Shown: positions 2,869 to 61,700, counted from the stretch's first letter. The stretch: DNA of 64,000 nucleotides from Perkinsus olseni (GCA_013115125.1 JABANN010000089.1:1-64000), one strand, 5' to 3'. Notes: generated from the sequence alone by a model not told the origin. A program made the numbers and translations.

Positions 2869-3256
2869 TATCAGGATCAATGTAAAGTCTAACAGACTCA
2901 TGCTACAGTATGAATGTATCAGCATCAATGTAAAGTCTGATNNNNNNNNNNNNNNNNNNNNNNNNNNNNNNNNNNNNNNNNNNNNNNNNNNNNNNNNNNN
3001 NNNNNNNNNNNNNNNNNNNNNNNNNNNNNNNNNNNNNNTATAGACTCATGCTACAGTATGAATGTATCAGCATCAATGTAAAGTCTGATAGACTCATGCT
3101 ACAGTATGAATGTATCAGCATCAATGTAAAGTCTGATAGACTCATGCTACAGTATGAATGTATCAGCATCAATGTAAAGTCTAACAGACTCATGTTACAG
3201 TATGAATGTGTCAGGATCAATGTAAAGTCTAACAGACTCATGCTACAGTATGAATG
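2869..3256. repeat. 48-bp minisatellite spanning an assembly gap
   Basis: Unit TAGACTCATGCTACAGTATGAATGTATCAGCATCAATGTAAAGTCTGA repeats on both sides of the N run and gives 16-aa periodic spurious ORFs. Confidence 0.95.
2942..3038. other. Assembly gap (N run)
   Basis: Run of N. Confidence 1.
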
Positions 3257-5301: not shown

Positions 5302-5563
5302 CGATTTGCAGTAGCGACACTGCCGTATCGTTTAGACACAGGTCTCTGTCCGTGTGACCGAATCTTGAGTTAACTCAGTTCATCATGGTATGGGACGAGG
5401 TTGGAAGATACCATCTCGCCGCTAGCATTACTCACGATATGAGTTGCGCTAGGTCAACCATTTTGGTTGGGGCGCGGGTGTTTTAGTCGGACCTGGGCTT
5501 CTTTTGGGACAGGGCTGGTCTGTCGGAAGGTATGGCAAATGAAGGGACTGTAGTAGTGCGATA

Positions 5564-8500: not shown

Positions 8501-10607
8501 CAAGCTGCCTGCCACGGTCTTCGTGTTCTCCCGAGTGCGCTGTGAAAGATACGCTATGGGGATGCCCCACCTGGACCTGCTCAGTGGCAGCGCTGAACGG
8601 TCTAAAGTACATGTGTTTCTAAAGGAATCTTTTTCGAAGTTGGATGAGACCGATCGGGACCTACCTCAGATTCAGGCTGTGACGGACTTAGCCTTGAGAG
8701 GCATTGGAGTTCATCATGGTGGTTTGCTCCCGATTGTTAAGGAAGCTGTGGAAATTCTATTCTCGCGCGGCCACATCAAGGTCCTTTTTGCTACTGAAAC
8801 CTTCGCTATGGGCGTTAACATGCCTGCGCGATCGGTTATCTTCTCCTCGATACGGAAACATGACGGGTCCAAGTTCCGCTACCTGCTGCCGACCGAGTAC
8901 ACTCAGATGTCTGGTCGAGCGGGGAGGAGAGGCCTCGATAGTGTTGGTAATGTGTATGTTTTGGCCGCTGAGGAGCTGCCTGACCTCAAGGCTTTGACTA
9001 CTACGATGACGAGCAAGCACACCCCGTTGCAGAGTCAGTTCAAACTGACCTTCCAGATGCTACTGCAAATGGCTAAGTTGACTCATTGGAAGGCGGAGGA
9101 CTTGATGAGCCGATCGTATCTGGAGAACGCCCGGGCGATGCAGCTGCCAACGGCGAGGCGAGATTTACAGAGGTTGAAGAAGAGGCAAGGCGACTTGCCG
9201 AAACTGGAGTGTGTGCTGGGCGAGGAGGATATGCACAGATACGCCAAGTTGGAGTTGAAGTCGCGGCATATGGCCAGCGACTTGTACGGCACACTGTTCA
9301 ATACTGATCATAAGAAGGTCTTCTGCCGAGGGCGTCTGGTCATGGTTTGGAGCCTGCCAGACATAAAGGCGTCATCACCAGCGGTGATCTTGGGGTCGAG
9401 CCCACCCTCGATGAGCACTTCGGTGGTCGCTACTGTTGACGTATTAGTAGTGTTGAGGAAACCAGTTCCCGGTAGCAGTCCAGCTGGCGACAGTGGATAC
9501 ACTGTGAGAATCAAGAACCTTCCAGTGAAGTCCGGCTTGCTGTTGGTTACTAATCATGCTCTGCCCAATGGAGTGGACTTTTCGGATGCCTTCGGGTTGG
9601 CAAGAGAAATGCGGCGATGCGAGGACGCGGGGCAGTTCGATGAGCCCTTGGAACTGGGCAAGAATCTGAAGCAGATTCAAACTGAGTACTTTGACACATT
9701 GATAGGCGTTAAGGATCTGACCAAGGCTAAGATGAAGAGCAAATGCCATCGGTGCCATCTACGGCAGGAGCACTTCGATTTAGTTGTCGAGGAGGGGCAG
9801 ATTGAGGATGATATCGAGGACCTTGAGTTCAAGATTGATGACTCGTCCTTGTATCTTGCGCCCGCACGGGAGAGAATGCTCCGAGCTCTGGTGGATTTAG
9901 GCGAACTTGATAAGGATACTATGCAGATAACGCTGAAGGGAAGAGCGGCCAGTGAGCTGGTTTTAGGGGACGAGCTTACCCTTACTGAGTTGCTGTTCCG
10001 CAACGAGTTTGGTGAAGCCGATGTACCGTCTTGTGTGGCGTTGGTGTGTTGCTTCGCCTGTGATTCGGGAGTGTCGCAGATGTCACACGAGGCGGCCGAG
10101 GCACTCCTTCCGCCGGAGACTGTGAAGCTGCTGGAGCAAGCCATGGAGACTCACGGTAAGGTAGCGGAGATCTTGACGAAGGAGAGGGTCGAGACTGACT
10201 GGACGGAGTTCGATAAACAACTGTGTCTGGGTATTGCACCGTTGGCATATGCCTGGGCTAAGGGGGTGCCCTTTGCTGAGTTGATGACGGCGGAACCGAT
10301 CCAGAGCAAGGAGGACGAGGAGGTTTATTATTCTTTGTGGAAGCCTGGAGATAAGCCGCTGCAGGAAGGGGCGGTAGTCAGGAGCATCCAGCGGTGTGAT
10401 GAGCTGTTCAGGCGGCTGGGTAAGGCTGCTGGTGTCATGGGCTCCACTGAGGTGGTGGAGAAGGTGGAGAAGTGCCGGGAGGCTATACGACGGGACATCG
10501 TATTCGCTTTGAGCCTGTACCTCGAGCAGGACGGTCAGCGGCAGGCCAGCAAAGCAGTAGACGAGGCTGGAGAGAAGGAAGGGTGTCCAGTAGAGGAAGT
10601 ATCATAG
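5564..10607 (+). CDS. SKI2: SKI2/SKIV2L-like DExH RNA helicase (multi-exon)
   Basis: Motifs [83 protein letters not shown] and the C-terminal [13 protein letters not shown]. The acidic N-terminal exon from ATG 5564 is inferred. The last exon is about 8291-10607. Confidence 0.92.
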
Positions 10608-10677
10608 CGTGCTTTACAGTATGGCTGTTGTTGTGTTGGCTACAAGTCCTCAATGAAGACGTTTCTAGCTTGCTCTG

Positions 10678-13600
10678 ATGCCATCAACGCCTCACGGGTA
10701 CGTACGGCAAGAGTCTGATATCGACATCGAGGAGGCCTCTGATGACGATGATTCCGGCAGCGTCTATGAAGGCCCCAGTGCGGACTTCGTGGACCCGGCC
10801 ATGGTGCAGAGAGATGGCTGCTGTCAGCGGCTGTGCAGGTGCTTGTGCCCCAGAAGGAAGGTCAAGGAGACAGGCTTCCGACTGGTGCGTGCTGACGATC
10901 GACGAACTAATAGACCGATCGTTATTGATGAAGACGGTGAGATGAAGGTGAGCGGTGTGAAGTCTCACCCAACGTCTTGCATTCTTCGGGTAGCTCTGAG
11001 CTGTTAGGGTCGTCCTCTCAGTTCCTCCGGAAAGTCTCGAATGTTGTGGCCAGCACCAAGTACACGATTGTGTCGTTCGTGCCAATGGTCTTCGCCCAGC
11101 AGTTCAAGTTCTTCTTCAACTTTTTCTTCCTTGTCTTGGCTGTCACGCAGTCCCTACCACCACTACGGGTAGGGTCATGCCTCAGTCAGGACGCTGCGTC
11201 CAGACGCTGTGGCTCCTTCTTAGGTCGGCCCCATGTTCACCTATATTGGACCTCTCGTATTTGTGCTCATGTGCACTATGTTGAAGGAAGCGAGTGACGA
11301 TATCAAACGGTAGCTGCTTCATATTGCGGGTTCGACCCGATTGCAGGCGTCGAGTGAGGTTTCCCTGCCGTCTTTTCGTCCCGCGGTTTGTAGCACAAAC
11401 TTTGTATACTCATATTGGCCGTGAGTACGTCGTGCATTCGGTGGGCTCATTTTTGATGTTGTGTCGCGACTTTCACCGACGTGCCGTCCAAAGCGTCATG
11501 GGCTGCACATGGTCGGCGATGTTCAGATGGCGCCGCGATAAGGCAGTGAACAGTAAGAAATACACCAGGGTCAACACAGCCATTGGTGACCTCGAAAAGG
11601 TGGCAAGCGCCGATATTAAAGTTGGAGATGTTCTCCAGGTAGGAATTTCGTGGCGCGCGACAACTAGGAGATGGGGGGACTGCGGGAGTTCGAGTCAGGT
11701 TCTTACGAACGAGCGAGTCCCAGCCGATATGATATTACTGCGGACGGAGTTCGGGGAGCAGGAAGGGTCAAAGGATGGCCAAACCTACATCAGTAAGTGA
11801 AGTTCCATGGGCTAAGGATTCCTGTATGGCTATGAGACCGCGACCAGATGGATTCAGGATTCGATAGGCCACCGCACCTGGCGTCTATGATGTCCTCAGT
11901 GGGGGGGGGCAAGCGTTTAGCCTCTTCTAACTTTCTTACAGTACAAACGCTCGCCTTCAGGAACGGATCAGTTGGACGGCGAGAAGGATTGGAAGCCGCG
12001 GAAGGCCCCAGCGTTGACCCAGGACCTCGCGGGCTGGAGAGATCTCTGTGGGGATGTGCAGATATGTGCAAAGTAAGCGCATAAACCGTGGCCAGGGCGT
12101 TCAGCTGGGGCAGTCGCTCCGGTGGCGCCATCATCGATCTATTGAGAGCATGGAGTGCTCTATTGAGAGTATCGTAGAAGGAGGATTGGAGTGAGGATGT
12201 CTGGCCGCGCTGGAAACTATTATCAGTTGACAACGAGAATCTTGCATTGGAAAAATTCTCTCGCCCACTATTCAACACTCATACGTGACACGTGATTCAT
12301 ACGACCAAAGGCAGCGGAATCGATAGACATGGCGCGCACCTTGACAGGTTGTTATACCTTTCAGGGTAGAGGCTCCCCAGATGAGCATCTACAAGTTCCT
12401 GGGTCGCCTGTCCCTCCGCAAGTTGGGAGAGGACAGCGATGTGAAGAGCGAAGCCTTAGGACTTGAGAATACCCTCTGGGCTAACACTGTCGTCACGCAT
12501 GGTCCTGTGTATGGTTTGGTGGTCTACACTGGAGTAGACAGTCGTACCGTTATGAGCTATGACGATAACGCCTCCGATGACAAGACCTGTCTCCTTGACA
12601 AGCAAGTGGACTTCTGTGCTAAGGTAGTCCGCTGTGGTTTGTGTCTCCGGAACGATGGAAATTACCATAATAGGTTGCATACAGTGGTCGGGAGTTTGAA
12701 TTTAGTCAGATCTGTTCTTTCGTCGTAACAAGCGTCACTCCTGAGGAGTGGGCCACAACACTCAATGATGTACACTATTGCTTTGATGAGGATAATATAA
12801 AGGATATCACTGCGGGACTACGGTTGACTGCATCTCGTGTCCTGGGTTGCAGGCTTACAATATTCCTTCACAGTAGCGGGGGTAAGCCCCAGGAGTTTGT
12901 GTTATGAAGGGCTCTTGTCATATTTGTGGCCCGCCTAAGTCGCCCGGTGTTCCGCATCACCGTAGATAGGGTCTGCGTGCATGGTTCTAGAATCTTTTAA
13001 TTTGGTATGCTGTACTCAGGTATGCTTCGCTATACTCATCGGATTGTCATTTATGTTGGTACTATGTCGTGGCCTCAGAGGGCAGTGGTGGATCTTCCTG
13101 CTACGGTAGGTTGGAGATAGGAGGACTCGAGTAGCCACATTCTGGTCTTCTGAAGCGTATGGGCTGCACTCGTTATGCCAGTCTCTAACACAACCTATTT
13201 CTCGCCTTCGAGTCCTTTGTGATGATTTCGCGCTTTTCAGTAGCTTCGTAGAGCTCTCAGCACGGTGTCTCCTTTTTCTGATCGCAGTGCCGCCAAACGC
13301 TATCATTGTATAACTATGCAGGTACATCGTCCTTTTGTCGTATATCATCCCGATCTCTCTTCGTGTTAACCTTGATATGGCCAAGACGCTCTACGCTAGT
13401 AGGATTGGTAACGACTCTAAGATCCCCGGTACCGTCGCCCGCAATACAGCCATTGTGGAGGTACGTGGAGCTCCTTCCTGCTCACAGTTTCTAGGCCGAC
13501 TCTATCAGGACCTTGGAACAGTCGACTACGTGTTGACGGATAAGACGGGTACTCTCACGAAGAACGATATGCTTTTCAAAAAGCTTCGAGTCCCTGCGGG

Positions 13601-16600
13601 GGAATACAGCAGTGGCACAGATACACAGCAAGTCTCCTTGGTAGGGTGTTCTCTGCGCTCCGTCATCCTCTGTTGTTTTTCCCAATGGTGTGTGCAAGAA
13701 CGATACAGGGCCTGTTGCTGTTAGATGATAACAAGAGTACTTCGACGTATCTTAGCGGCTCGGCCCAGTCCGGGAACCTTCGGTCGGTCACCTGGTCAAC
13801 GAGGGCAGACAGAGGAGGAGTCGCAAGGGCTGGGTGAGTTGATTGCTCGCTAGGAGAAGGTCGGGATCGTTTCCGACTGTTGGTTGTTCAGAGCTGCTCA
13901 CCGCCATGGTGACGTTGGCGCTGTGTCACAATGTGACTCCAGTGGAGACCGCGGGGTCGGATGAGTGGACGCTGCAGGCGCCTAGCCCTGATGAGGCTGC
14001 TCTTGTGAAGTACGCTCGTGAATGTGGAATCAAACTTATAAGGAGGGATGATGATTCCATAGTAATAGCGATAGCCGATACGGGATCTGTATGGGGATTT
14101 TTGTGATAGCGGCTTCAATTCTCGTTCTTTGCAGATACTAGAATGTATGAACATCACTGGAAGGCCTCAACTGCGGTATGACATTATAGAGTGCTTTCCC
14201 TTCTCATCGGACAGAAAACGGATGGGTGTCATCGTCAAAGAAGAGGTGGGTGGTACGGCATCGAGGACGGAAAACCCAAGCTCATCTGTCAATCATCCTG
14301 ATCGCTCTGAGGCCATCTGTAACGTATCGTCAGATATCGGGTCAGTACGTGTACCTTATCAAGGGAGCTGATTCGGTGATGATACCTCGGGTAGCCGGCC
14401 ATGACAGCAACAACGCCTTCATGGAGGACGTCGTAGACGACTATGCGCGCCATGGTAAGGACAAGTAGTGCGCCTTGGCGTCTGAACAGCGCGAGGACCA
14501 CGGTAGGGGGTGTCAGAAAGTGCGTACCTTGGGCAGGTCTGAGGACACTGGTGGTTGCATTGAAGAGAATGACGGCTGAGTCTTGTGAGGAGTTTCAAGC
14601 CGCATACCGAGAGGCGGCATTGGACGTGAGTGAGCAGAGGGGAGATAAGCTGACAGCAATAGTGGATAGTTATCTGGAGACCAACCTCGATTTGGTAAGT
14701 CTATACGCGAGGGTCGCTGATAGGACCTATTCTGTCTAAGGTATGCTTGACTGGCGTGGAAGATATGCTACAGGATGACGTAGCCCCCGTTATCGAGAGC
14801 CTCCGAGTTGCGAAAATTAAGGTACTCGAACTGTCGTCACCGAATGAGCAGCGTTCGTTGACTGTCAAGGTATGGATGTTGACCGGTGACAAAATCGATA
14901 CGGCGATATGCATCGCTATTTCCACTGCGCTGAAGTCACCGGACCAACCGCTGCTGCGGCTCGAGGCCAGTCATGTGAGAATGGGATTCGCTCATCAATA
15001 CTGGGCAGGAGGACCAGCGCTCGTACCAGCGTCTCAAACCCATAGTTCTTACCAGGTGCACAGCGCCATCGACGCACTGTCAGACCTTCGCGAGGCCGGT
15101 AACGCGAAGTCGGAGGGCCTGAGTGATACTGTTGTTGTTATTGATGGCACGGTGAGCCACAAGATGCCGGGCTGTAGCACATGGAGACGGCCGCGTCAGG
15201 TCCTGGCAATGGTGCTGTCGGCGGGCCTGTACACGTCTGAGTTCGTGGAGCTGATTAAAGATGCTCCCGCAGTGGTATGCTGCCGTTGCAGTCCTTCGCA
15301 GAAGTCGGAAGTTGTTCGTGCTATCAAGAAGTAACCCTCAGCTTCCTGGCATGGATGCAATAGCCGCTCATATGCCTGGAGTCGCTCCATCGACTGAAAT
15401 CGTCGTGTGCCGCGACCCTGTCATTACTGTGTCGCTCTTGAGCTGTGGGTGCCAGGTATGATAACGGTCAGCGGACACTTGCAATCGGCGATGGCGGCAA
15501 TGACGTTGGTGAGCCGAGTTGCTTCGCTCCGCCCTCATGGAACTCTCTTCACCAGGTATGATCCAGGCTGCTGACGTTGGAGTGGGCATCGTGGGAAAGG
15601 AGGGCATGCAAGCTAGTCTTGCGGCGGACTTCAGCATTCAAGAATTCCGGTAGGTTGATGTTATTCAGTTCCTCCCAGCAGCTCCATTCCTGCAGATCCC
15701 TGCATCGGCTTCTACTGTGGCATGGGCGAAACTGTTACCTACAGTCAGCTCGAATGTCGCTCTTCGTTATTCATCGTGGCTTGGTCATTGCCGTTATGCA
15801 AGTTATCTTCTCGGCGATGTTCTACTTCATAGCCTTGCCGCTATTCCAAGGCTGGCTAATGATTGGATACAGCACGTATGAGCGGAACCCCCTACCCTCT
15901 TCCTCGCTATGACGTGCTCATTCTCAGATACTATACCACAGCGCCTGTGTTTTCACTATGTCTCTACACCGACCTCGAGGACACGGTCGTTTACCAGTAC
16001 CCGGAACTTTATGCAATTAGTCGCCGTGGACGGCAGATGTCTCTCAAGGCGTTCCTTGGATGGGTGTGGAAGTCTATCTATCAGGGCTCTGCTATAATGG
16101 TCCTCACTGTTATTCTTTTCGGCAACGAGCTGATAACGAGCTCTCTGGTGGCCGTTGCGTTCACGTCTCTGGTCATCAGCGAGCTGCTCAACGTTGCTTC
16201 TGAAGTGAGTGGTTCAGCGGGCGTCTCATCATCAATAAGTTAACGTCCCCTCAACAGGTCCATCCGAACTGGCACCCCCTGATGATCGTGGCGGAGTTGT
16301 TGAGCATAGTGATATATGTATACTCAATGTTCATCCTGCGCTCCTACTTCGACTTGGACACCATTTTTTCCATCGGTTTCCTTTGGAAAGTAGCCATAAT
16401 AACAGCTGTGAGCTGGATACCTGTAAGTATTCGTTGAAAAGGCTTTAACACCAGCGATCTATCAGCTTACGGGACTCTCACAACATAGGAATCCTGTCGA
16501 CTGGTAGCTCTCATTCGCATCGTCCCCCATGTTTGCGACCAAGATGCATGCACTCGACTTCCTCGTTATGGTTCCGTTTCTAAGTGACAGCCGATGCTGT

Positions 16601-16816
16601 AAGACGTCCTCGGAGATGTTTTCATAATATAAGGTACATGCGTGGAAGCAAATCCGTCGATGCTGTTGCCCGCCGCACCACCGGAAGCTGCTCCGAGCAT
16701 ATCAAAGAAGTGGAGGCCATAGACCGGAGAGAACACGCTACGTCTACCACGACCCGGAAAATGACAGCGTGGAGCTCTTGGCAACTACTACCACTGGAGA
16801 GTCGGCATCTGAGTGA
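10678..16816 (+). CDS. NEO1: P4-type phospholipid-translocating ATPase, ATP9/NEO1 class (multi-exon)
   Basis: Motifs [79 protein letters not shown] and C-terminal TM helices. Stop TGA at 16814-16816 is inferred. Confidence 0.92.
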
Positions 16817-17636
16817 ATTGATAATAGAGTATCATTTATGTAACCATTGGTCCTGTTTCACCATCTTTTTGTTAAGTCCCCCGGGATGACTTCTATGTGT
16901 TGTGTGATTTTAATGTGGGTAACAGTCCTGTAGTCTCCGAGTAGATCTACTATCAGGCCCGATGCCATGGATCTCACGCGTGCATACAAAACCTTAGCAC
17001 CCGTTACGGACTCGGAACGCACTGATCTAGGGAGCTTACAGGCTCGGGAGGAGCCATGTTGGCCTTCGTTATTTTGAGGTTCGTGCGTACTGTCCCGCGC
17101 AGAGAGGTTTTTGGCTCAGTGGTCATGACGAAGTGGGTCGTACGCTATTTTGAGGCTTTCAATGAGCACTTCGAGCAGCTTTGGGTGAGCGGAGGCGAAG
17201 CCTCTGTGTGAGGGACATCTTGGAGAACACACTCCTCGTTACCCGCGCGACTCTATCACTCGAACTGTGAAGTGCAGTGGTGTACGGCGTTCATCGCTGC
17301 GTTCGGCGCGAAACGAGTATTTCCTGAGTTCTCTTCTTGGAGAGCTCCTCTGTAGTACAGTTTCTGCACGACCGCAGCCATGCTTCGGCTCTCATTGAAG
17401 CAGATAGAACTTTCCGACCGGGCGTGGCGAAAATACATGCAAGTTAGCCGCCTTATGTAGTGTGACGCCGAAGCTTGTGCTCGCGTACACCTCCAATGCG
17501 ACCACTGTGTCTACGCCTCAGGGGAGTTTCCCGTCCAGTATCCTTTTTTGCCTGAGTATGCTCAATCGTGCTGAAGCTCAGCCTAACCTCAGTGCAGAGC
17601 TCTATGTTCTAAGCTTGTAATTGGTTAAGAATATCT

Positions 17637-19748
17637 ATGGCCGTCCAAACTGCTGCCGACTCTGTGCCTCCCCTGACTTCTCCCCTGCTCGAGGCAGGTC
17701 TAGCGAGCGATGTTGAAAAGCGCAGTAGGCTACCTAAGGGCAGCAAAGTACTGCTTGCTATCGCGGCCGCCACCTTGGTTGTCTCATTGATGGTGTACAT
17801 GACTGGAACACCTATCCGTTATCCCCCGATTGTTGAAGGTGATGCCGGCCATCGCAACGCTGAGGTTCAGGTTGGCATTGAGCAGGTCCTGGCAGTCTCG
17901 CGGAGAATGCTCAGAGGAGACTTGACCATACCGTGAACGATGCTGCCTTCCATATACTCATGAATAGGCCCAAGCTGTGTGACACGAGCGTCAATCAAGC
18001 CAGCGGCTACTTTGTCGTAGACGCAGCTTCGAACAAAAAGTATGATTTCAGCTGGCAAGGCCCTCCTTGGCCTCAATCGGTTGTCTGCAGGTACTTCTTC
18101 TGGTTCTTCGAGGCTCGTCACTCTCCTGAGACCGCCCCGACCACGTTCTGGCTGAGCGGGGGCCCTGGTGCCAGTTCTATGCTCGCTGTGAGCAACATTG
18201 CCTCTTCACCGGCACTTCACTTTGGTTCTCGCTCCAGCCTGCAGCCCTCCAATACTGCTTTTCAGTTACTAGCTGAGAATGGTCCGTGTACTGTGAACTC
18301 TGAGGGAACTGATACCATTTATAACCCCTATAGTTGGACAGAGGCCAGCAATATGGTTTGGGTTGACCAGCCTGCCGGTGAGCAATATCCATCATAGGCT
18401 GCTCACATTAGCCATCGTGTTGGATTACGCCTTAGGTACTGGTTTCTCTATTGGTGGCTCGTATGATGCTGACGAGGCAGAAGTTGGGCAAGATATGTAC
18501 CATTTCATGCAAACCTTCTTTAAGCACTTCCCGACCTACAACAAGGATGTCCACGTTGTCGGGGAATCCTACGGCGGCCATTATGTGCCCGCCGTCGTTA
18601 ACACAGTTGTGGAACACAACACTGAGCTCTCCATCGGCTTGGGTAGGTGCCAGCTGTTCTTGTGTGTCGGTGGATTGGTCGCAAGTTAGCTCCCAAGGGC
18701 CGCGTCCCGATTGACATGAAGGGAATGGCTATTGGCAACGGTATGACCAATACTATTGAACAAATTAAATGGTTGCCTAAAATGGTAAGCAGTCATCTTT
18801 TTTCTCGTACTGTTGTGACACTGCTTTACAGGCCTATGATTCCGGTACCGCTCCTTCTGTTGTGGATTTCGAAACCTATCAGAAGATGCAGTCCCGTGTT
18901 GATGGCGTTGTTGACGCGGTCGCTAAATGTGACAAGACTGGCGATAAAGATGTACGTGAGCATAGTTCGTGGTGCGTCGTTTCAGCCCCTTCTGAGCAGG
19001 TCTGTCAGACCGCTTGGAATGACTTCACTAAGGAGCTGATGGCTCCAGTAATGGAAGGCGGATACAACATGTAAGCAGTCTTTTGGTGGCTACCGTTTCC
19101 TCTGTCGAGGTCGCGCAGAAGTAGATAACGTCTTCAGGTACGATCTCCGTCTGAAGGGTCACTACAATTGGACCGGTATCAATACGTGGTTGAACAATCC
19201 GGAAATAAGACGCGAAATAGGAGCTGAGAAGGAATGGGAAGCCGTCAGTATTGAAGTGGGTCTCAGCCGCCATGGATGTAGCCTTGCCGCTTGCTTCATA
19301 TCAGGTTTACAAAACTCTCACTCCGAAGGATTTCCTCCAGACCTACGATAATTTGGTCCCGCCGCTGCTGGCAATGGGGCTTAAAGTTCTCATCTATGCT
19401 GGTGACCAAGACTATCCTTGCAACTGGCTCGGCAATAGGGCGTGGACCGAGAAGCTCGAATGGGACCACAGGGATGACTTCCAGCTAGCTCCTTATCAGC
19501 AGTTCATCGCCCCTGCTGTGGGACTTGATGGTGAGGGCGCTGCTGAGTCGCCACGCTGGTTCAAGCTGTTGTGCTGCTCAGACAATTCGATCACCGAGAT
19601 TATAGTGGGGTCCATGCGACACTTTAGGAACTTTGCGTTCCTTCGCGTGTCCAACGCTGGGCATATGGTCCCCATGGACAAACCGGCTGAGAGCCTTCAT
19701 ATGTTCGAAGAATTTCTGCGCGGCCGTGTACCCGAGGCCCTTTATTGA
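17637..19748 (+). CDS. Serine carboxypeptidase, family S10, with N-terminal membrane anchor
   Basis: Motifs FFWFFEAR, WLSGGPGASS, DQP, GESYGGHYVP, AIGNG, YAGDQDYPCNW and NAGHMVPMDKP. Confidence 0.93.
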
Positions 19749-19871
19749 GTTACGCCCTTGTCTTCTCACTATTGTACTGTATTATTCTTTCTTGTATAGC
19801 AGGCGCATAGAGCGTTCTGTCTTTCTGCTCGTCTCTGCGTGATGATGATGCTGTTGTTCTTTACTGCAGCC

Positions 19872-19905
19872 GTGGTCAGTCCTTATATGTGGTCAGTCCT
19901 TATAT
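19872..19905. repeat. 17-bp tandem duplication (GTGGTCAGTCCTTATAT x2)
   Basis: Read directly, downstream of the carboxypeptidase stop codon. Confidence 0.8.
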
Positions 19906-20482
19906 ACTCGTCGTTAATTACGTCGGTACGCATGGGATTTCTTCAACCAACTTGGTGTTGAGCCTTCAGTAACCCGCAGCACGCTGTCTAGCTACTGCGC
20001 GAGATTTTCACCGCGCGCCCTGATAATCGTAGGTCCAGAAGGCCTTGCCTGTCTCACTATGATGCTCGTGTGCGAGTCACTCGCAGCGAGTTCCGAAATA
20101 GTATAGCAACCGGCGCTGACAGAGGGGATAGGGGCTCGGTCCGGGTTTGACGGTGGACCCCATCTAGCTGCCACGGCACCTCGTAGAAAATACAGATCCT
20201 CATTTCACACGGCGAGTCGTTTGAATGCGCAATTCTACAGAGCACATGAGGTTCCCAGTTCCAGAGTCGAGGGCAAGGACGAGGTCCCCTACTAGGGCGT
20301 CGATGGAGATGAGGCCTGAGGTGCTCGAGTACGCCTTCCTCCGATGATGAATATCGATTCTGCTTCAGTCTAGCGGGGGAGCCTCTCGGGTGCAGAGAAA
20401 GAATGGCTCAGTGACACCCACTGGTCAGCTGGTTCGAGCACCACCTGGAGCCCTTAGCAGCGCCGATATATCTATCAACGGG

Positions 20483-24094
<3,612 letters not shown>

Positions 24095-33991: not shown

Positions 33992-34063
33992 TCCGCGGTA
34001 GTATAGTGGTGAGTATTCCTGCCTGTCACGCAGGAGACCCGGCTTCAATTCCCGGCCGTGGAA
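33992..34063 (+). tRNA. tRNA-Asp (GTC)
   Basis: Cloverleaf TCCGCGG-TA-GTATAGTGGTGAGTAT-T-CCTGC-CTGTCAC-GCAGG-AGAC-CCGGC-TTCAATT-CCCGG-CCGTGGA-A, with a T-run just downstream. Position 53 is C instead of G. Confidence 0.88.
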
Positions 34064-47370: not shown

Positions 47371-49344
47371 ATGCTGAGCAAGCTTGCCACTCGCGCTCAG
47401 TCTGGCTGGAGTGCCGTTAGGCATGCTAGCACATCGACCATCCGTGGATACAAGGCAAGCCTTCCATCTGTTGCTTTGATGTGGTTGGATTTCCTCGTCT
47501 ACAGGTTCATGACCACTTCTACGATGCTGTTGTCGTTGGTGCTGGCGGAGCTGGTCTCAGAGCCGCGTCCGGCCTGGTTGCTCACGGGCTTAAGACGGCC
47601 TGCATCTCCAAAGTCAGTCTCCGCGGTCAAAGGTTCCTCCAACTGAATCGTGTTTGTATGTCAGGTCTTCCCGACTCGTTCTCACACTGTGGCTGCCCAA
47701 GGAGGCATCAACGCCGCCCTTGGTAACATGACCGAAGACGACTGGCGCTGGCATGCCTACGACACAGTGAAGGGCTCTGACTGGCTCGGTGATCAGGACG
47801 CCATAGAGCACATGTGCCGTCTCGCCCCTCAAGTTGTTCTCGAGCTCGAGAGCTACGGTCTGCCTTTCTCCAGAACTAAGGAGGGGAAGATCTATCAGAG
47901 AGCTTTTGGTGGTCAGAGCCTCAAGTTCGGCAAGGGTGGCCAGGCCTACAGGTGTGCCGCAGCGGCTGACCGCACTGGTCACGCCATCCTTCACACCCTC
48001 TACGGTATGTCTCTCAAGTACGATTGCTTATTTTTCATCGAGTACTTCGCCCTGGACCTTATCATGGACCAAGATGGCACCTGCAAGGGTGTCATCGCTA
48101 TGAGCATGGAGGACGGGTCTATCCATCGCTTCGGTGCCCATCAGACGGTCATTGCTACTGGTGGTTACGGCAGGGCCTATCAGAGCTGCACCAGCGCTCA
48201 CACCTGCACTGGTGACGGTGGTGGTATGGTATCTAGAGCCGGCCTTCCTCTGCAGGATCTCGAGTTCGTACAGTTCCATCCCACTGGTATCTTCCCGGCT
48301 GGTTGCCTTATGACCGAAGGCTGTCGTGGGGAGGGAGGGATACTGAGGAACAGCGAGGGGGAGCCCTTCATGGCAAGATATGCTCCCACCGCGAAGGATC
48401 TGGCCTCTCGGGATGTGGTCTCCCGGGCTATGACGCTCGAGATTCGCGAAGGCCGAGGCGTTGGCCCCAACAAGGACCACATTTACCTGCACTTGGACCA
48501 TCTCCCTGCCGAAACTCTGAGGGAGAGGCTGCCGGGTATCTCTGAGACAGCGAAGATCTTCGCTGGGGTTGATGTTACTAAGGAGCCCATTCCCGTCCTA
48601 CCTACAGTACACTACAACATGGGTGGTATTCCTACCAACTGGAAGGCCCAGTGCCTGGACCCGACTCCCTCTGACCCCAGCAAGATCGTTCCTGGTCTAC
48701 TTGCGGCCGGCGAGGCTGGCTGTGCTTCCGTTCACGGAGCGAATCGGTTGGGTGCCAACTCTCTCCTTGACTTGGTTGTGTTCGGCCGTACGGCTGCCGA
48801 CACTGTAGCTGAGATCGTCAAGCCCAACTCTCCGCCCGTGGCTCTACCGAAAGACGCTGGCGAGGCTACCATCGACCGATTTGACAAGATACGTAACGCA
48901 AAGGGCTCAGTGTCCACAGCCGACCTTCGTACTAAACTTCAGAAGACTATGCAGACTCGGGCTCCGGTGTATAGGAATGGTGATGACCTGAAGAAGGGTT
49001 GCGAAGAGGTCCGTGAAATTATGAAGGAGTTTAAGGACATTGGCATCAAGGATCGTACTTTGGTCTGGAATACTGATCTTATCGAGACTCTCGAGTTGGA
49101 AAACCTCATCACTCAGGCAGCACAAACGGTTATCTCGGGAGAGGCCAGGAAGGAATCCCGAGGAGCTCATGCCCGAGAGGACTTCACCGAGAGGGACGAC
49201 GAGAAGTGGATGAAGCACTCCCTTTCGTACCAGACCAAGCACAATATTGAGGAGTCCGATATCGCCCTGAAGTACAGAGCAGTGGTGGACCAGCCACTAG
49301 ACAGTGAGATGCATCACGTGCCCCCGGCCAAGCGGGTGTACTAG
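47371..49344 (+). CDS. SDHA: Mitochondrial succinate dehydrogenase flavoprotein subunit
   Basis: A transit-like N-terminus and motifs [53 protein letters not shown] and RKESRGAH. Two short 5' introns, the first being GC-AG at 47455-47504. Confidence 0.97.
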
Positions 49345-56045: not shown

Positions 56046-56468
56046 GCCATTCCCGGTACTCACTGTATCGGCGGTATCAGTCTCTGTGAAGATTTTGCCG
56101 CGGTTCATTTCAGGGAAACGGATCCCGTTCAAGGAACATAATTAAATGATAATTAGTGAGACTCTGGAGATATGAGGTTCTGGTATTCAGCATTCAGGTA
56201 CTTTACCAGAGAAACATCGTACTATTGTTCTGCCATGATCATGCCATCACCATTATAATCGTTGTCAATACAAGAAGTGTCGTGTTATTCGAGTTTGGTA
56301 CCGAAAGGGCCAATGAAAGACTAACTACTTATGAACCTGTAGAACCACAACCCGTTTGAGCCCAGCATCGCGAGCCTTGAGAAAGCAACCCGAAACCCGA
56401 ACGAGCAGACTTTAGGCAATTGAGAGCTAGTGAAAGAAAGACTGTGTGTAGGATTTTGCCACTAACAG

Positions 56469-56553
56469 TCAGATTGGCTTGAGTGTACTATTATTATCAT
56501 ACACTTATAGATGCTTGCCTGTCTCGATGAGGGAGCGGGTTCATCATTACAGC
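56469..56553 (-). ncRNA. Candidate box C/D snoRNA
   Basis: C box ATGATGA (56547-56541) and D box CTGA (56472-56469), about 80 nt apart, directly after a U17 copy. The target was not identified. Confidence 0.55.
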
Positions 56554-56561
56554 TTTCGAAG

Positions 56562-56614
56562 GGATGTTGCCGGTATGGTTTGTCTCGCAGCTAATGGCCA
56601 CATAGTAGCTACTG
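56562..56614 (-). ncRNA. U17/snR30-like snoRNA, 3' part (truncated by gap)
   Basis: m2 AAACCAT plus ACA box, identical to the 3' end of the 56834-57028 copy. Confidence 0.6.
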
Positions 56615-56710
56615 NNNNNNNNNNNNNNNNNNNNNNNNNNNNNNNNNNNNNNNNNNNNNNNNNNNNNNNNNNNNNNNNNNNNNNNNNNNNNNNNNNNNNN
56701 NNNNNNNNNN
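56615..56710. other. Assembly gap (N run)
   Basis: Run of N. Confidence 1.
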
Positions 56711-56739
56711 TATCATCACTGCAATAAAGAACAGTATTT

Positions 56740-56825
56740 GCTGTATCAGAGAGAGGAACACTTGTTTCTGCTTTTATCCCCACGGAGAATCGGACTGGGG
56801 CGGCAGATAGGATCATCATTACAGC
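56740..56825 (-). ncRNA. Box C/D snoRNA, SNORD31(U31)/snR67-like
   Basis: Terminal stem GCTGTA/TACAGC, C box ATGATGA, guide TGCCGCCCCAGT with D' CCGA (antisense to LSU rRNA CUGGGGCGGCA), and D box CTGA. Confidence 0.85.
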
Positions 56826-56833
56826 TTTCGAAG

Positions 56834-57028
56834 GGATGTTGCCGGTATGGTTTGTCTCGCAGCTAATGGCCACATAGTAGCTACTGCAAGTCTAGGAATA
56901 TATCGGCACAGCATTAGGAGCGCAGAGGCACTCAACTAACGCATTTTGTCTCGGATGAAATCGTTGGCGACTATACACCACGTGAAGATGCTCGCATAGA
57001 CGATTACACATGAGTAGTTAGAGGCTAC
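56834..57028 (-). ncRNA. U17/snR30-like box H/ACA snoRNA (downstream copy)
   Basis: H box AGACAA, m1 ATATTCCTA (56901-56893), m2 AAACCAT (56853-56847), basal stem TGCCG/CGGCA and ACA box at 56839-56837. Confidence 0.85.
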
Positions 57029-57313
57029 TCATGTACTCATCCAAGATACATTGCCATTTCGGTGCGTTACAATCACCGGTACCCCACAAGAAGAGGCACA
57101 AGCGCGAACACGCAACAGTAGCTGTTTGCACACGAACAGGTCGACAACACTATGGAAGAAGAGCAGTCGAGGGAGAGTGTGCAGAGCCTAGCCCACTGGC
57201 AACGCAACAGCTATCGGATAACCCTTATCAAGGCGCAGAAAGCAACCCCTTGGCAACCACACGAAACCGATTCGGCAAGTGGGAGTTTCAACAGGTCATC
57301 CACAGAGTGCACC

Positions 57314-58566
57314 TTAATCGAAGAGATCGAAGTCCATCTCCTCCTCTTCCTCTTCCTCCTCCTCGGCGGGAGCGGCGGCAGCCTCAGCCTTGGCCTCACC
57401 AGCAGCAGCGCCGGCAGCGGGGGCAGCAGAGGCGAACTTGGAAGGATCCTTGAGGAATTCCTGAAAAGAAATCAGTCACAGCGATTATACCAAGCGACAG
57501 TTTATCTCAATAAAAAATTATTGCCAATATGGTTTTTCTCTCAGCTAATGGCCACGTAGTAGCTACTGAACGACTAGGAATATATCGGCACAGCATTAGG
57601 AGGGCCAAGGCACTCGACTAACGCATTTTGTGTCGGAGAGGACCGTTGGCGACTATACACCACTGGAAGGTGCTCGCATAGACAGTTACTGCGAGCATGG
57701 TTAGAGGCCACACCGCAATCCCTCCGATCGACGAATAAGCAAAAATCCACCCGTGTTACCTTAAGCTCCTCAACCTCAGGGAAGGTGAAGTCGATATCGG
57801 CGCACAAGGCAGCGATGTTCTTGAAGGCGTTGTTGATGGCATAGGGCAAGGTAGCCTCGTTGGGAATACCAGCCTCACGAGAGAAGGCAGCCAAGTAGGT
57901 GACACCGTGCATGAACTTAGCAACGAGATCATCATCACTGATATCCAAAGCAGCGGCGTCGTAGACCTCGCCGTTGTCATAGATAGCCTCAAGCTCAACA
58001 CCGTACTCGAAGGGACGGATGTCCAACTTCATGAGAAGAGCCTGCTGAGAGGCAGTGACCTTCTCGCCCTTGGTGACAAGAGCGACATCGTTGGAGATTT
58101 CGATGGAACCCTTGACAATCTTGGTGGCGATGTTCAAGGCCTGGAAGAAGTTGGTCTGAGAGGGGTCCAAAGGAGTAGGACCAGCGGGGATGTTGACATC
58201 ACACTGAGCGACCATACCGGCCTTGGCCATAGCGGGAACCTTATGCTCAGAGATGAGCTCACGGATCTCATCAATAGGGGCCATGCAGAAGATGAATCCA
58301 ATGTTACCCTTGACAACGCTCAAGAGACGGGAGAGATCGACGTCGAGCTCCTCCTCATACTGCCTGAGGGCGGTACGGAGCATGGTGTTCTTGCCCATAA
58401 CGATGACGGCCTTGCCGCGGAGAGCAATACGGATCTGCTGCAACTGGTTGGATCCGACATGGTCGACGGAGGCGATGAGGATCTTCTCACAGTTGGCGAC
58501 GAGGTCCTTGACCCTATCGAGGTAGGCGGTCTTCTTAGCAAGCTTCTGGGGATCGCGAGGTGCCAT
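57314..58566 (-). CDS. RPLP0: 60S acidic ribosomal protein P0 (uL10); exons 58566-57760 and 57460-57314
   Basis: Motifs HVGSNQLQQIRIALRGKA, MGKNTM and FFQALNIATKI, plus the spliced acidic tail AEEEEEEEEMDFDLFD. GT-AG intron at 57759-57461. Confidence 0.97.
57516..57712 (-). ncRNA. U17/snR30-like box H/ACA snoRNA (intronic in RPLP0)
   Basis: H box ACACAA, m1 ATATTCCTA (57583-57575), m2 AAACCAT (57535-57529), basal stem TGCCGATAT/ATATTGGCA and a terminal AUA variant box. Confidence 0.85.
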
Positions 58567-58797: not shown

Positions 58798-61700
58798 ATG
58801 AGTGAGTTTGAGGCATACGCTGCGGCAACAATCTCTCCAATGCTGAGCCGAGCGCTTGCCGATCTCTATCAGCAGCGCGGTGACTCGGTTGAGCCCGTGG
58901 AATATCGTACTGACTGGCTCAAACTCTGGGCAGCTGCACAGGGTAGTGTAGGGGGTGGTCATCGGGTGCACCACCTTCGTGTTCAACCTTTGCGTGCCTT
59001 CAGTCGCCGAGCGTAGTCGAGGGGAGAAGGCTCGAAAGCAATCGGAATACACAGAGAAAGTTAAGGCCGATGTAACGCCGCTTGGCTCTTTTGGAACAGT
59101 CACAGCTTCATTATGGTGAATCAGTTTCGTGAGAAACAAGCAAAACATGCGGAGGAGGAAGAAAGAGCCTCGAGGCCATTTAAGATGCTTAACGAAGTCG
59201 TACGAACAGTTGCCGAGGTCGACTATCCCAAAGGTGATGCGTCATGGTGTTCTTTTGTCGGGCATGACAGACCTCTTTGCGCCACTGGTGGGTATTCGCA
59301 TAGATGGTATCTAGGTTTCAGGCTAGCTGTTGAAACGCAGATGCATAATCGGTGGCGATTCTCGTCTTGCTGTAAAGATGTGAAGTGGTCGTAAACGACG
59401 CGTTATGCCGCTGGGCGGACATGAAACTACTGTTAAATGAGAATGACCTCACGCGCTCGGGACACGCCTTGTCATTTCCCGGAACATCTTGTAGACGTGG
59501 AACGTTTAAGTTGGCAGTCGGAAGCGAGCAATACTTGTTAGATTGTAAATACTGCCAGCGTTTCCCGAGCCCAGCCGTGTGGCAAGAGCTGACGGACACT
59601 GTACGAGGGGCCGTTGCAGGATGCAGCGGATGCTACGTTGGAGAGGTTGTCACCGATGGGGAAGGAAGCAAGCATTTACGGTAGGCCACCGCTCGATACT
59701 GCGATAGCCGTGCGAGTCCGGTGTCTGACTCACCCGGCTATAAGGTATATTGCAAATTCTGGCGTCGCCCCTGGGAAGGCTAGGTTGGAGGAAGGTGAAG
59801 GAGTCGTATGGAAAGAAGTAGGGTTATGGAACATCTCCTTGTAGAGTACGGTCATGTAGGTGTTCGAGCAACAAGAGGAGGAAGAGGGGGAAGGGGAATC
59901 GTCTAAGTCGAGGCAACTGTGAGTTGTCCTATGCGTCCAGTGGTCACGTCTAGTCTTGCAAGCTGCAACCTCATTAGCCTACTAGAGTGCGGCTTGAATT
60001 TTCACGGGCCTTGCCCTCGATGCGGTCTCCCTAATGGTCCATCGCCACAGCGAGGATTCCGCTAGCTGGGTGTAGAGAGGCCTGCTCAGGTATCTTCCGA
60101 ACGTCATGGACGTGGCTGAAGTGAAGTACTTTGACTACACCAAGCCCGGTTCCTTTCTAGCTATACCGATATGGTAGAGCAGCCCCGTGGCGAGAGCCCT
60201 CGGGCGAACGATGCCCTCGTTCTCATCAGCTACTCCAGCGTTCTGAACAAGGAAGGTCTGGAAGCTACCGTTGCGGACATGAAGGAACGCCAAGCACAGT
60301 TTGTGGAGGAGATGGCTGCGTGAGTGGCCGTGGATGAATGCTGGTGGGGGAGGCCTGCCTTAGGTATGGAGAGGCCAAGACTCAGTACGATCAGGCAGTG
60401 GCCGAGCTACAGGAGGGCGATGAGGTGACCTCCATTATACGGCATGCGTTCTTTACGAATATGCGTGGCTCGGTTCACTGAGGCATGTGAGATATGGCTC
60501 CTTCATAGGCCCCCGAAGAGCCGGTCGAGCCGGTAATTAGGGATCTTAACTCACTTGAAGGAGTAACTAGGCAGCTGGTTTTGTGCGTCGATACCCTTGG
60601 GGGAGAGGGTGGATTGTTAGAGATCTGCCAACAACACAGGGACAAGGTAATAGATGGCAGTGGCTGCGAAATGGTCGTGGAGTCGATTGATGCAGTTGGA
60701 TGAGCTCTGCCGTCACCTTGGGGAGGCCATGGCTGACACAGAACTACAAGCCGTCAGAGAACAGGCGGAGTATAGTGTAAGCGTGGCGTGTGCGAAGGGG
60801 ATTGCAGATCGCCGTGTTAGACATCGGAAGCTGGTGAGGGCAATCGTACGGCCCTAATGGCTAAGTACACGGAGGCCACTACCGGAGAGGCACTACAGAG
60901 GATGGAGAAGCAAGTAGCTGAGGATATCGAGGCACTCGGGGAAGGTTCGTGGTGATGCTTCCGCGATGGGAGTGGACATCATTGTCTTAGATGTGAGTGA
61001 TGATAATAAGGAAGTCATCCGTCTAACACGTAAACTTAATACACTGCGGTAGCCTGCTGAGGGTCCACAATTGAGCGGTAGTCAGGGTAGCTGGTGTAGG
61101 TCTGCGTTGGAGGGTTCTGTGAAGACGGAACTACTGGTTGATTTGAGCTCTCGAAAGTTGCCAGAGGAAGCGTTGGCGACACTCATGAAGGTTTCCCTTG
61201 CTGACATCACTCCTGTTTGGAGTAGCATCTCCTAGGTGGTGCTCCTCTTCCTTACTGAGCACGATCCGTCTTCCTTTGCTGAAGACACCCCGGTCCAGTG
61301 GTCTCAGCTGGTGACTGCCTTTCACTCTGAAGAGGTTTGGAATAAGGTAGGTAGGGTGCTTACGATTGCCTTCAGCGTGGTGGTGGGCAGATGATGGCTG
61401 CGGATTTGAGACGCCCCAGGCCGGGTGTCCCAGCTGGGCACACCTTAGCGATGGCGAAGGCTCTGATTGAGGAGGCAACTCAAACAGGAGGGTTGAAGGG
61501 CGAGGGTAGGCTGTTAATGGGAGGTGGTGACCGGACTGTGTATGGTCTCTTAGATGGTAGTGATGAGGAAGGGGTGGCTCAGGAGCATCCAGTGGATATC
61601 ATCCTGCTGGGGTTATTGGAGGCAGCAGTGCAGCTAAGAGAGAAGGTGATGGCGATGCTACGGAGTGCTCCGGGAGGTTGCCACTCCTCCGCTCCGCCTA

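What the first reader, a model, noticed from the sequence alone, without database searches (positions are those of the whole stretch)
57516..57712. U17/snR30 18S-processing snoRNA homologue inside the only coding-region intron of RPLP0
Seen: the 299-nt intron is far longer than the usual 45-70 nt here. On the - strand it carries an ANANNA H box, then a 3' hairpin whose internal loop has ATATTCCTA and AAACCAT on opposite sides, closed by a 9-bp stem and an AUA box. Known: AUAUUCCUA (m1) and AAACCAU (m2) are the diagnostic snR30/U17 elements that pair with 18S ES6 and are needed for 18S maturation. Inference: this is a compact (~200 nt) U17 hosted by a ribosomal protein gene, linking stalk protein synthesis with SSU processing. 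I do not know of this arrangement being described in perkinsids.
Basis: partly seen in the sequence, partly recalled or inferred. Interest (0 to 1): 0.85.

Follow-up and report, generated by a model that had tools for sequence, protein, structure and literature searches.

The report
U17 snoRNA copies around RPLP0
The long intron of the ribosomal stalk protein gene RPLP0 does carry a copy of U17/snR30, the small nucleolar RNA needed to make 18S rRNA, but it is an expected housekeeping gene and the far more abundant copies lie in a snoRNA cluster just downstream.

Summary
RPLP0 lies on the minus strand as two coding exons split by a 299-nt intron (57461-57759); spliced contigs in two runs confirm the splice. 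The intron holds a full-length U17/snR30 (SNORA73) H/ACA snoRNA, copy A (57516-57726). It has an H box, exact m1 and m2 motifs in the 3' hairpin loop, the family's 7-nt spacing, and AUA in place of ACA.

Rfam matches it over the whole model (35.9 bits, E 3.4e-5 for the window), below the curated cut-off of 74 bits.

- Copy B (56834-57043) has a canonical ACA box and a better Rfam match (53 bits, E 5.8e-10).
- A U31-like C/D snoRNA follows it, then a run of N.
- After the N run come the 3' end of a third U17 copy and another C/D snoRNA.

Copies A and B differ at 45 of 214 aligned columns, yet all 60 predicted pairs hold in both, 7 through changes on both sides.

In one RNA run, copy B (plus C) is covered about 200-860 times deeper than its flanks. 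Copy A is about 100-fold lower, near host-exon level.

Pairing with this organism's own 18S could not be tested. This is a new member of a known, ubiquitous family; U17 in ribosomal-protein introns is already known from Xenopus and Fugu.

The parts
57760..58566 (-). RPLP0 coding exon 1 (269 codons, ATG at 58566-58564)
   Evidence: Open frame. Pfam Ribosomal_L10 E 4.3e-18 and RL10P_insert E 2.2e-22.
57461..57759 (-). 299-nt GT..AG intron of RPLP0, host of U17 copy A
   Evidence: Sequence. A joint skipping 299 nt is seen in X1 (1 contig, depth 5022) and X2 (1 contig, depth 111).
57314..57460 (-). RPLP0 coding exon 2 (48 codons plus TAA at 57316-57314)
   Evidence: Pfam Ribosomal_60s E 5.2e-7. 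The joined protein of 317 aa ends with the acidic stalk tail.
57516..57726 (-). U17/snR30 copy A (intronic, about 211 nt, AUA box)
   Evidence: RF00045 full-length match, 35.9 bits. Fold -72.8 kcal/mol, z -3.38, 0 of 200 shuffles as stable. Copy-specific contigs 57522-57599 and 57592-57719 with 0 mismatches in X1, and 57540-57696 in X2.
57628..57633 (-). H box ACACAA of copy A
   Evidence: It follows the 5' domain closed by pairs 1-93.
57575..57583 (-). m1 motif of copy A
   Evidence: Identical to the m1 listed for human, yeast and Xenopus in PMC7601244.
57529..57535 (-). m2 motif of copy A
57519..57521 (-). AUA box of copy A, 7 nt after m2
   Evidence: AUA is a known alternative to ACA (passage of PMC7991803).
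56834..57043 (-). U17/snR30 copy B (downstream of RPLP0, canonical ACA box, major expressed form)
   Evidence: RF00045 full-length match, 53 bits, E 5.8e-10 for the window. Fold z -4.00. X1 depth 151,000-639,000 in bins 56860-57027 against 743-881 in the flanking bins.
56946..56951 (-). H box AGACAA of copy B
56893..56901 (-). m1 motif of copy B
56847..56853 (-). m2 motif of copy B
56837..56839 (-). ACA box of copy B, 7 nt after m2
56743..56826 (-). C/D snoRNA 1, U31-like (C box 56819-56813, D box 56749-56746, 5-bp terminal stem)
   Evidence: Weak matches to three U31-type models that share the same guide core: SNORD31 20.4 bits E 0.04, snoU31b 19.6 bits, DdR13 17.8 bits. All are below their gathering scores. 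Boxes.
56711..56722 (-). Start of a second C/D snoRNA (C box 56719-56713), cut off by the run of N
56615..56710 (.). Run of 96 N (gap or withheld stretch) inside the snoRNA cluster
56562..56614 (-). 3' end of a third U17 copy (C): m2, basal stem and ACA box; the rest is hidden by the N run
   Evidence: The 77 nt at 56538-56614 are 99% identical to 56810-56886 of copy B (family D2). Sequence.
56465..56552 (-). C/D snoRNA 3 (C box 56547-56541, D box 56472-56469), family not identified
   Evidence: Boxes. No minus-strand Rfam match at E up to 5.

Best explanation
The locus encodes at least three paralogous genes for the U17/snR30 (SNORA73) box H/ACA snoRNA, all on the RPLP0 strand. Copy A sits in the single coding-region intron of RPLP0. 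Copies B and C sit in a tandem snoRNA cluster that starts about 270 nt after the RPLP0 stop codon, each followed by a C/D snoRNA.

Shown here:
- family-level sequence and structure match;
- exact m1 and m2 motifs at the right place and spacing;
- a structure kept between paralogues by compensatory changes;
- splicing of the intron;
- RNA accumulation limited to the snoRNA bodies, with B (plus C) about 100-fold above A.

Inferred from what is established for this family (PMC2664660, PMC7601244):
- Copy A is bound co-transcriptionally by the H/ACA core proteins. It is released by splicing and debranching, then trimmed by exonucleases to the hairpin base at the 5' end and to 3 nt past the AUA box.
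- B and C are cut out of a longer cluster precursor.
[quoted passage not shown] They do so in the inverted, non-pseudouridylating orientation. This refolds ES6 in the early pre-ribosome and allows the cleavages that release 18S rRNA.

The cluster copies most likely supply the bulk of U17. The intronic AUA copy is a minor but intact contributor.
For: Covariance model:
- RF00045 matches B and A over model positions 1-219 of 219, at 53 and 35.9 bits.
- E-values are 1.1e-11 and 6.4e-7 in 1.2 kb, and 5.8e-10 and 3.4e-5 in the whole window. No other snoRNA family reaches E 0.05 or better there.

Motifs:
- The pattern m1...m2 + 7 nt + AYA occurs 2 times, against 0.00 expected.
- The 7-nt spacing equals the invariant spacing reported in PMC2664660 (passage).
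- AUA is an accepted variant of ACA (PMC7991803 passage).

Structure:
- Each copy folds into a 5' domain, H box, internal hairpin and 3' hairpin. z-scores are -3.38 and -4.00, with 0 of 200 shuffles as stable.
- A and B differ at 45 of 214 columns, 20 of them in paired columns. All 60 of 60 pairs are standard in both copies.
- Mixing the 5' sides of one copy with the 3' sides of the other leaves 55 and 54 of 60 pairs.
- 7 pairs changed on both sides, against 0-1 when partners are slid by 1-3 columns; 3 of 500 shuffles reach 7.

RNA:
- X1 holds the spliced joint, so it holds cDNA.
- Depth over B is 151,000-639,000, against 743-881 beside it.
- A-specific contigs have 0 mismatches at depths 2,523 and 7,387, against 601 for the 3' rest of the intron. 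Host exons are at 5,000-21,000.
- In X2 the only intron coverage is 57540-57696, inside copy A.
Against: - Both Rfam scores are below the curated gathering score of 74 bits, so the default Rfam scan is blank for them.
- The 5' domain of copy B alone gives no Rfam match at E up to 10. The match therefore rests on the 3' domain plus the overall layout.
- The structure used for the pair counts was predicted from the same two sequences, which favours it (noted in the output), and two sequences are few.
- X1 and X2 are Logan contigs. They show presence and rough depth, not RNA ends, strand or size, so no ~210-nt species was actually sized. Part of copy A's depth in bin 57574-57615 comes from words shared with copy B.
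- One A-specific contig stops matching at 57522, just before the AUA box, and I could not see why.
- The two raw-read RNA runs laid no reads, so they are no test.
- 18S of this organism was not available, so m1/m2 pairing is inferred from motif identity only.
- No relative's locus could be examined.
Confidence: 0.9

Rival explanations
1. Copies B and C are the working U17 genes. The intronic copy A is a decaying or nearly silent paralogue, whose signal in RNA runs is mostly intron or pre-mRNA carry-over.
For: Copy A scores 17 bits lower than B on RF00045. It carries AUA instead of ACA. Its specific contigs are about 100-fold less deep than B's and no deeper than the host exons.
Against: - Copy A keeps exact m1 and m2, the H box and the 7-nt spacing.
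- All 60 predicted pairs are kept despite 45 differing columns, 7 pairs through double changes. This points to purifying selection since the duplication.
- AUA is a tolerated box variant.
- In both X1 and X2, coverage within the intron is concentrated on the snoRNA body and not on the intron ends: 601 and 0 in bin 57490-57531.
Confidence: 0.2
2. The elements are ordinary pseudouridylation-guide H/ACA snoRNAs that happen to resemble U17.
For: They share the generic H/ACA layout. The Rfam scores are under the family cut-off.
Against: - Both 9-nt m1 and 7-nt m2 are exact. [quoted passage not shown]
- The model is matched end to end.
- No other H/ACA family is listed for these stretches at E up to 10; one lower-scoring overlapping match within a clan was left out of that output.
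Confidence: 0.03
3. Chance motifs in an intron, with no RNA gene.
For: None beyond the sub-threshold Rfam score.
Against: 0.00 pattern matches are expected against 2 found. E-values are 3.4e-5 and 5.8e-10. There are duplicated copies with compensatory changes and strong local RNA accumulation.
Confidence: 0.01

Closest known systems
Vertebrate U17 / SNORA73 (human U17a and U17b, 207 nt, in introns of the non-coding U17HG gene)
   Same: - Size (about 211 nt).
- Layout: a 5' domain with two inner stems, H box, small internal hairpin, then a 3' hairpin with m1 and m2 (description in PMC7601244).
- Identical m1 and m2, the same 7-nt spacing, and two or more paralogous copies.
   Different: The host is a protein-coding ribosomal protein gene for one copy and a tandem cluster with C/D snoRNAs for the others. 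Copy A has AUA. The sequence outside the 3' domain is not detectably similar.
[quoted passage not shown]
   Same: U17 is hosted by introns of a ribosomal protein gene. The snoRNA-bearing intron is larger than the short introns typical of the genome, judging by the title of the Fugu paper. Maturation is presumably by exonucleolytic trimming of the excised intron.
   Different: The host is RPLP0, a large-subunit stalk protein, not a small-subunit protein. There is only one intronic copy. The bulk of the RNA comes from non-intronic cluster copies.
Tetrahymena thermophila U17 (about 240 nt), the protist U17 listed in the table of PMC7601244
   Same: A protist U17 of similar size with a conserved m2 and 18S rm1/rm2 partners (PMC2664660 passage).
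   Different: The last letter of Tetrahymena's m1 is G. Here m1 is identical to the animal and yeast form. The genomic context of the Tetrahymena gene was not seen.
Yeast snR30 (606 nt, independent gene)
   Same: The m1 and m2 motifs, their spacing, and the function from which the mechanism here is inferred.
   Different: Yeast snR30 is three times longer, with a huge 5' hairpin and a leader. It is an independently transcribed, capped RNA, not intronic or clustered.

Membership tests
U17/snR30 (Rfam RF00045 SNORA73) | Box H/ACA layout: hairpin domain, H box (ANANNA), 3' hairpin, ACA/ANA box | tested here: met
   Folds of both copies. H boxes ACACAA and AGACAA; boxes AUA and ACA. The 3' end lying 3 nt after the box was not mapped.
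U17/snR30 (Rfam RF00045 SNORA73) | [quoted passage not shown] | tested here: met
   Exact in copies A and B; m2 also in partial copy C. The motif definition is from PMC7601244.
U17/snR30 (Rfam RF00045 SNORA73) | m1/m2 element invariantly 7 nt upstream of the ACA box (PMC2664660) | tested here: met
   7 nt in both copies (pattern with a fixed 7-nt gap; rule quoted).
U17/snR30 (Rfam RF00045 SNORA73) | Significant full-length match to the family covariance model | tested here: met
   Model 1-219 of 219; 53 and 35.9 bits; E 5.8e-10 and 3.4e-5 for the window. Both are below Rfam's curated gathering score of 74, so Rfam's own pipeline would not annotate them.
U17/snR30 (Rfam RF00045 SNORA73) | m1 and m2 complementary to rm1 and rm2 in ES6 of the cognate 18S rRNA | not testable with these tools
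   There is no rRNA in the window and no genome is held. Inferred only, because the motifs equal those that pair with conserved rm1/rm2 in human, yeasts and Tetrahymena.
U17/snR30 (Rfam RF00045 SNORA73) | Accumulates as a stable small RNA | tested here: met
   strong, sharply bounded depth over copy B and modest depth over copy A in X1; copy-A-only intron coverage in X2. Size and ends were not measured (contigs only).
U17/snR30 (Rfam RF00045 SNORA73) | Required for the early pre-rRNA cleavages that give 18S rRNA; bound by Cbf5, Nop10, Nhp2 and Gar1 | not testable with these tools
   Needs depletion and immunoprecipitation experiments.
U31 / SNORD31-type box C/D snoRNA (for the neighbour at 56743-56826) | C and D boxes, terminal stem, and the conserved U31 guide core upstream of D' | tested here: inconclusive
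   The boxes and a 5-bp stem are present. Three U31-type models align the same guide core, but at E 0.04-0.28 and below their gathering scores. The rRNA target was not checked.

The most novel reading that the evidence does not exclude
The AUA-box copy in the RPLP0 intron is not a redundant spare. It would be a separately regulated U17 isoform whose output is tied one-to-one to RPLP0 transcription, while a tandem U17 plus C/D cluster supplies the bulk. Together with the vertebrate-like four-hairpin, ~210-nt layout, this would mean that both the compact U17 form and its hosting by ribosomal-protein introns go back much further than vertebrates, or arose twice.
Probability: 0.15. Interest if true: 0.4.

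Novelty: new member of a known kind. Interest (0 to 1): 0.3.

Why it matters
U17/snR30 is essential and is thought to be present in all eukaryotes, so finding it here mainly fills an annotation gap. Rfam's default threshold misses all copies.

The practical value is threefold:
- It gives exact coordinates for at least three U17 genes and two or three C/D snoRNAs of this organism.
- It shows that the RPLP0 intron is long because it carries a gene.
- It shows a mixed organisation in one locus: one intronic copy plus a tandem cluster.

It also warns that the assembly hides part of the cluster behind a run of N. It does not change what is known about how U17 works.

Tried and rejected
1. Whole genome of the window: none is held. 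So there is no 18S ES6 test and no genome-wide copy count.
3. Raw-read RNA runs X21 and X23: 0 reads laid from about 4 and 6 in 100 of each run. This is no test of expression, ends or strand.
4. The 24-letter loose end of the X2 mRNA contig at 57244, tested as a possible 3'-UTR splice into the cluster: 0 matches in the window with up to 2 mismatches. The idea was dropped and the origin of those letters is unknown.
5. The abundant X1 signal at 57196-57321, right after the stop codon. The fold is not unusual (z -0.39, 66 of 200 shuffles as stable). Rfam gives only noise (Y_RNA E 3.8). I see no canonical C/D or H/ACA boxes by eye. Unexplained.
6. RPLP0 loci of relatives. The metagenome scan gave 362 pattern matches, of which 115 were relatives and 80 were kept; the best identity is only 62% and most are about 1-kb transcript-like contigs. 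0 of 80 loci (105,113 nt) carry the m1...m2...ANA pattern. None shows a split match; 20 of 80 have one match running across the intron site. So there is no informative relative and no test of conservation.
7. A 30-nt similarity upstream of RPLP0 (59275-59304, 77%). Alignment with copies A and B shows no U17 elements. Rejected as chance.
8. Ancient conservation of the 5' domain. The full-length Rfam alignment shows some identical letters in stem 2. The 5' domain of copy B alone gives 0 matches at E up to 10. Not supported.
9. Census of intron lengths in the window.
10. Literature. 'Perkinsus' plus 'snoRNA' gave 9 papers, none on the subject by title or abstract start. 'U17' plus 'snoRNA' plus 'dinoflagellate' gave 0 papers. 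'snR30' plus 'Plasmodium' plus 'snoRNA' gave 4 papers, none describing a myzozoan U17 by listing. The original U17 papers (PMC344193, PMC146072) are not held. Supplementary files were not consulted.

Full report
**What is at the coordinates**

On the minus strand the window carries RPLP0.
- Exon 1 runs from the ATG at 58566 to 57760 (269 codons). It matches Pfam Ribosomal_L10 (E 4.3e-18) and RL10P_insert (E 2.2e-22).
- Exon 2 (57460-57317, then TAA at 57316-57314) matches Ribosomal_60s (E 5.2e-7).
- Between them lies a GT..AG intron, 57759-57461, of exactly 299 nt.
- Contigs of two public runs skip exactly these 299 nt: X1 with 1 contig at depth 5022, and X2 with 1 contig at depth 111. The intron is therefore real and is spliced.

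**The intronic element (copy A)**

- H box ACACAA at 57633-57628;
- m1 at 57583-57575;
- m2 at 57535-57529;
- a 9-bp basal stem with one G-U pair;
- AUA at 57521-57519.

Rfam's default scan of the window reports only a tRNA. With E-value reporting, RF00045 (SNORA73, the U17/snR30 family) matches 57516-57726 over the whole model (positions 1-219 of 219) at 35.9 bits. The E-value is 6.4e-7 in a 1.2-kb search and 3.4e-5 for the whole window. The curated gathering score is 74 bits, which is why the default scan is blank.

It folds to -72.8 kcal/mol, with z -3.38 and 0 of 200 shuffles as stable. The fold is a branched 5' domain, single-stranded H box, a small internal hairpin, and a 3' hairpin with m1 and m2 facing each other.

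The same scan finds a better U17, copy B, at 56834-57043, about 270 nt after the RPLP0 stop. It scores 53 bits, with E 1.1e-11 locally and 5.8e-10 for the window. It has H box AGACAA, exact m1 and m2, and a canonical ACA box.

Downstream of copy B, in order:
- a box C/D snoRNA (56743-56826) that aligns weakly to three U31-type models through the same guide core (E 0.04-0.28, all below gathering);
- the start of a second C/D snoRNA, which runs into 96 N (56615-56710);
- behind the N run, the last 53 nt of a third U17, copy C (56562-56614). The 77 nt at 56538-56614, which run on into the next C box, are 99% identical to the matching stretch at the 3' end of copy B;
- a different C/D snoRNA (about 56465-56552).

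RPLP0 is therefore followed by a tandem U17 plus C/D snoRNA cluster, part of which the assembly hides.

The combined pattern (m1, 30-55 nt, m2, 7 nt, AYA) occurs twice in the 64 kb, against 0.00 expected from 100 shuffles.

**Tests of family membership**

Fayet-Lebaron et al. (PMC2664660, passages read) state two things. First, m1 and m2 pair with rm1 and rm2 in 18S ES6. [quoted passage not shown]
- In both copies exactly 7 nt separate m2 from the box, ACA in B and AUA in A.
- AUA is listed as a naturally occurring alternative to ACA (PMC7991803, passage).
- The review PMC7601244 (section 2.3 and other passages read) lists m1 and m2 for 14 species. The motifs here equal the human, yeast and Xenopus form.
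- That review gives U17 lengths of 203-240 nt outside fungi. The ~211 nt here is therefore ordinary, not compact.
- The layout found here (two inner stems in the 5' domain, H box, small internal hairpin, 3' hairpin) is the one the review describes for human U17.

**Paralogue comparison**

Copies A and B align with 85% mean column identity.
- 45 of 214 columns differ: 20 in the 120 paired columns and 25 in the 94 unpaired ones.
- All 60 of 60 predicted pairs are standard pairs in both copies.
- Combining the 5' sides of one copy with the 3' sides of the other leaves 55 and 54 of 60.
- Seven pairs changed on both sides, six in the 5' domain and one in the 3' hairpin. With partners slid by 1-3 columns the count is 0-1, and 3 of 500 column shuffles reach 7.

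Caveat: the structure was predicted from these same two sequences, and two sequences are few. Still, the pattern is that of two RNA genes kept under structural selection since their duplication. This argues that copy A is not simply decaying.

**RNA evidence**

X1 holds the spliced RPLP0 joint, so it contains cDNA. Many of its contigs end in what I recognise from memory as Illumina adapter letters, which points to short inserts.

Depth in X1:
- over copy B: 151,000-639,000 in bins 56860-57027, falling to 743-881 in the flanking bins;
- over copy A: specific contigs with 0 mismatches at 57522-57599 (depth 2,523) and 57592-57719 (depth 7,387);
- the 3' rest of the intron: 601;
- host exons: 5,000-21,000;
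- the 44,000 in bin 57574-57615 is inflated by a 29-nt stretch identical in A and B.

In X2, a run dominated by the mRNA (exons at 111), the only intron coverage is one contig at 57540-57696, inside copy A, at depth 2.9. The cluster is not covered at all.

From this I conclude:
- U17 RNA from B (and C, which cannot be told apart over the shared part) is very abundant.
- Copy A yields RNA at roughly 1% of that level.
- Within the intron, the snoRNA body is what persists.

Limits:
- These are contigs, so no size, end or strand is measured.
- One copy-A contig stops matching at 57522, just before the AUA box, for reasons I could not see.
- The two raw-read runs laid nothing and are no test.

**Mechanism**

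Shown: the genes, their structure, the splicing, and local RNA accumulation.

Inferred from the family's established biology (PMC2664660, PMC7601244):
- H/ACA core proteins assemble on the nascent RNA.
- Copy A is released by splicing and debranching, then trimmed by exonucleases.
- B and C are cut out of a longer precursor. Low continuous depth of 425-743 across the spacer 57070-57195 in X1 is compatible with this but does not prove it.
- m1 and m2 then pair with ES6 of 18S in the early pre-ribosome, without pseudouridylation, allowing the cleavages that release 18S rRNA.

Not testable here: the 18S sequence of this organism. No genome is held and there is no rRNA in the window.

**Comparison with what is known, and novelty**

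U17/snR30 is described as ubiquitous, and a protist example (Tetrahymena) is in print (PMC7601244 table; PMC2664660). Hosting in ribosomal-protein introns is classic:
- all six introns of the Xenopus S8 gene;

New here are the organism, the host gene (RPLP0), the AUA variant, and the mixed organisation of one intronic copy plus a tandem cluster with C/D snoRNAs. My searches of the held library found no description of U17 in perkinsids, dinoflagellates or Plasmodium. That library lacks most subscription journals, and I did not verify the organism's identity.

Relatives could not be examined:
- the 80 metagenome RPLP0 loci are at most 62% identical and mostly transcript-like;
- 0 of 80 carry the motif pattern;
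- none has a split match at the intron site.

**Verdict**

The finding is a new member of a known, expected family in a known kind of arrangement, and the intronic copy is the minor one. Interest is modest (0.3). Its value is in annotation and in flagging the hidden cluster.

Noticed in passing
window 57196-57321 (minus strand; the first ~120 nt after the RPLP0 stop codon): Run X1 shows depth 19,000-134,000 here, several-fold above the RPLP0 coding exons, with an adapter-flanked end at 57224. The fold is not unusual (z -0.39), there is no credible Rfam match, and I see no canonical snoRNA boxes by eye. It may be a stable 3'-UTR-derived RNA or a library artefact. Unexplained.
   Followed up: partly
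window 57244 (minus strand): The X2 mRNA contig leaves the window sequence at 57244 and continues with 24 letters that occur nowhere in the window. This could be an allele, a chimeric contig, or a joint to sequence outside the window.
   Followed up: partly
window 56743-56826, 56711-56722 and 56465-56552 (minus strand): Two complete box C/D snoRNAs and the start of a third alternate with the U17 copies. The first carries the conserved U31/SNORD31 guide core (E 0.04-0.28 to three U31-type models). The one at 56465-56552 has no family match.
   Followed up: partly
window 56615-56710 and 2942-3038: Runs of 96 and 97 N. The first interrupts the snoRNA cluster and hides most of the third U17 copy, and possibly further repeat units.
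   Followed up: no
window 33992-34063 (+): A tRNA gene, the only Rfam match above a gathering score in the window (57.7 bits).
   Followed up: no
window 8271-10604 (+), 10941-11294 (+), 17882-19745 (+), 47647-49341 (+): Pfam matches on open frames:
- a helicase with Helicase_C and DSHCT domains (Mtr4/Ski2-like by my recollection of that domain pair);
- the N-terminus of a phospholipid-translocating ATPase;
- a serine carboxypeptidase S10 gene split over several frames, so it has introns;
- a succinate dehydrogenase / fumarate reductase flavoprotein.
   Followed up: no
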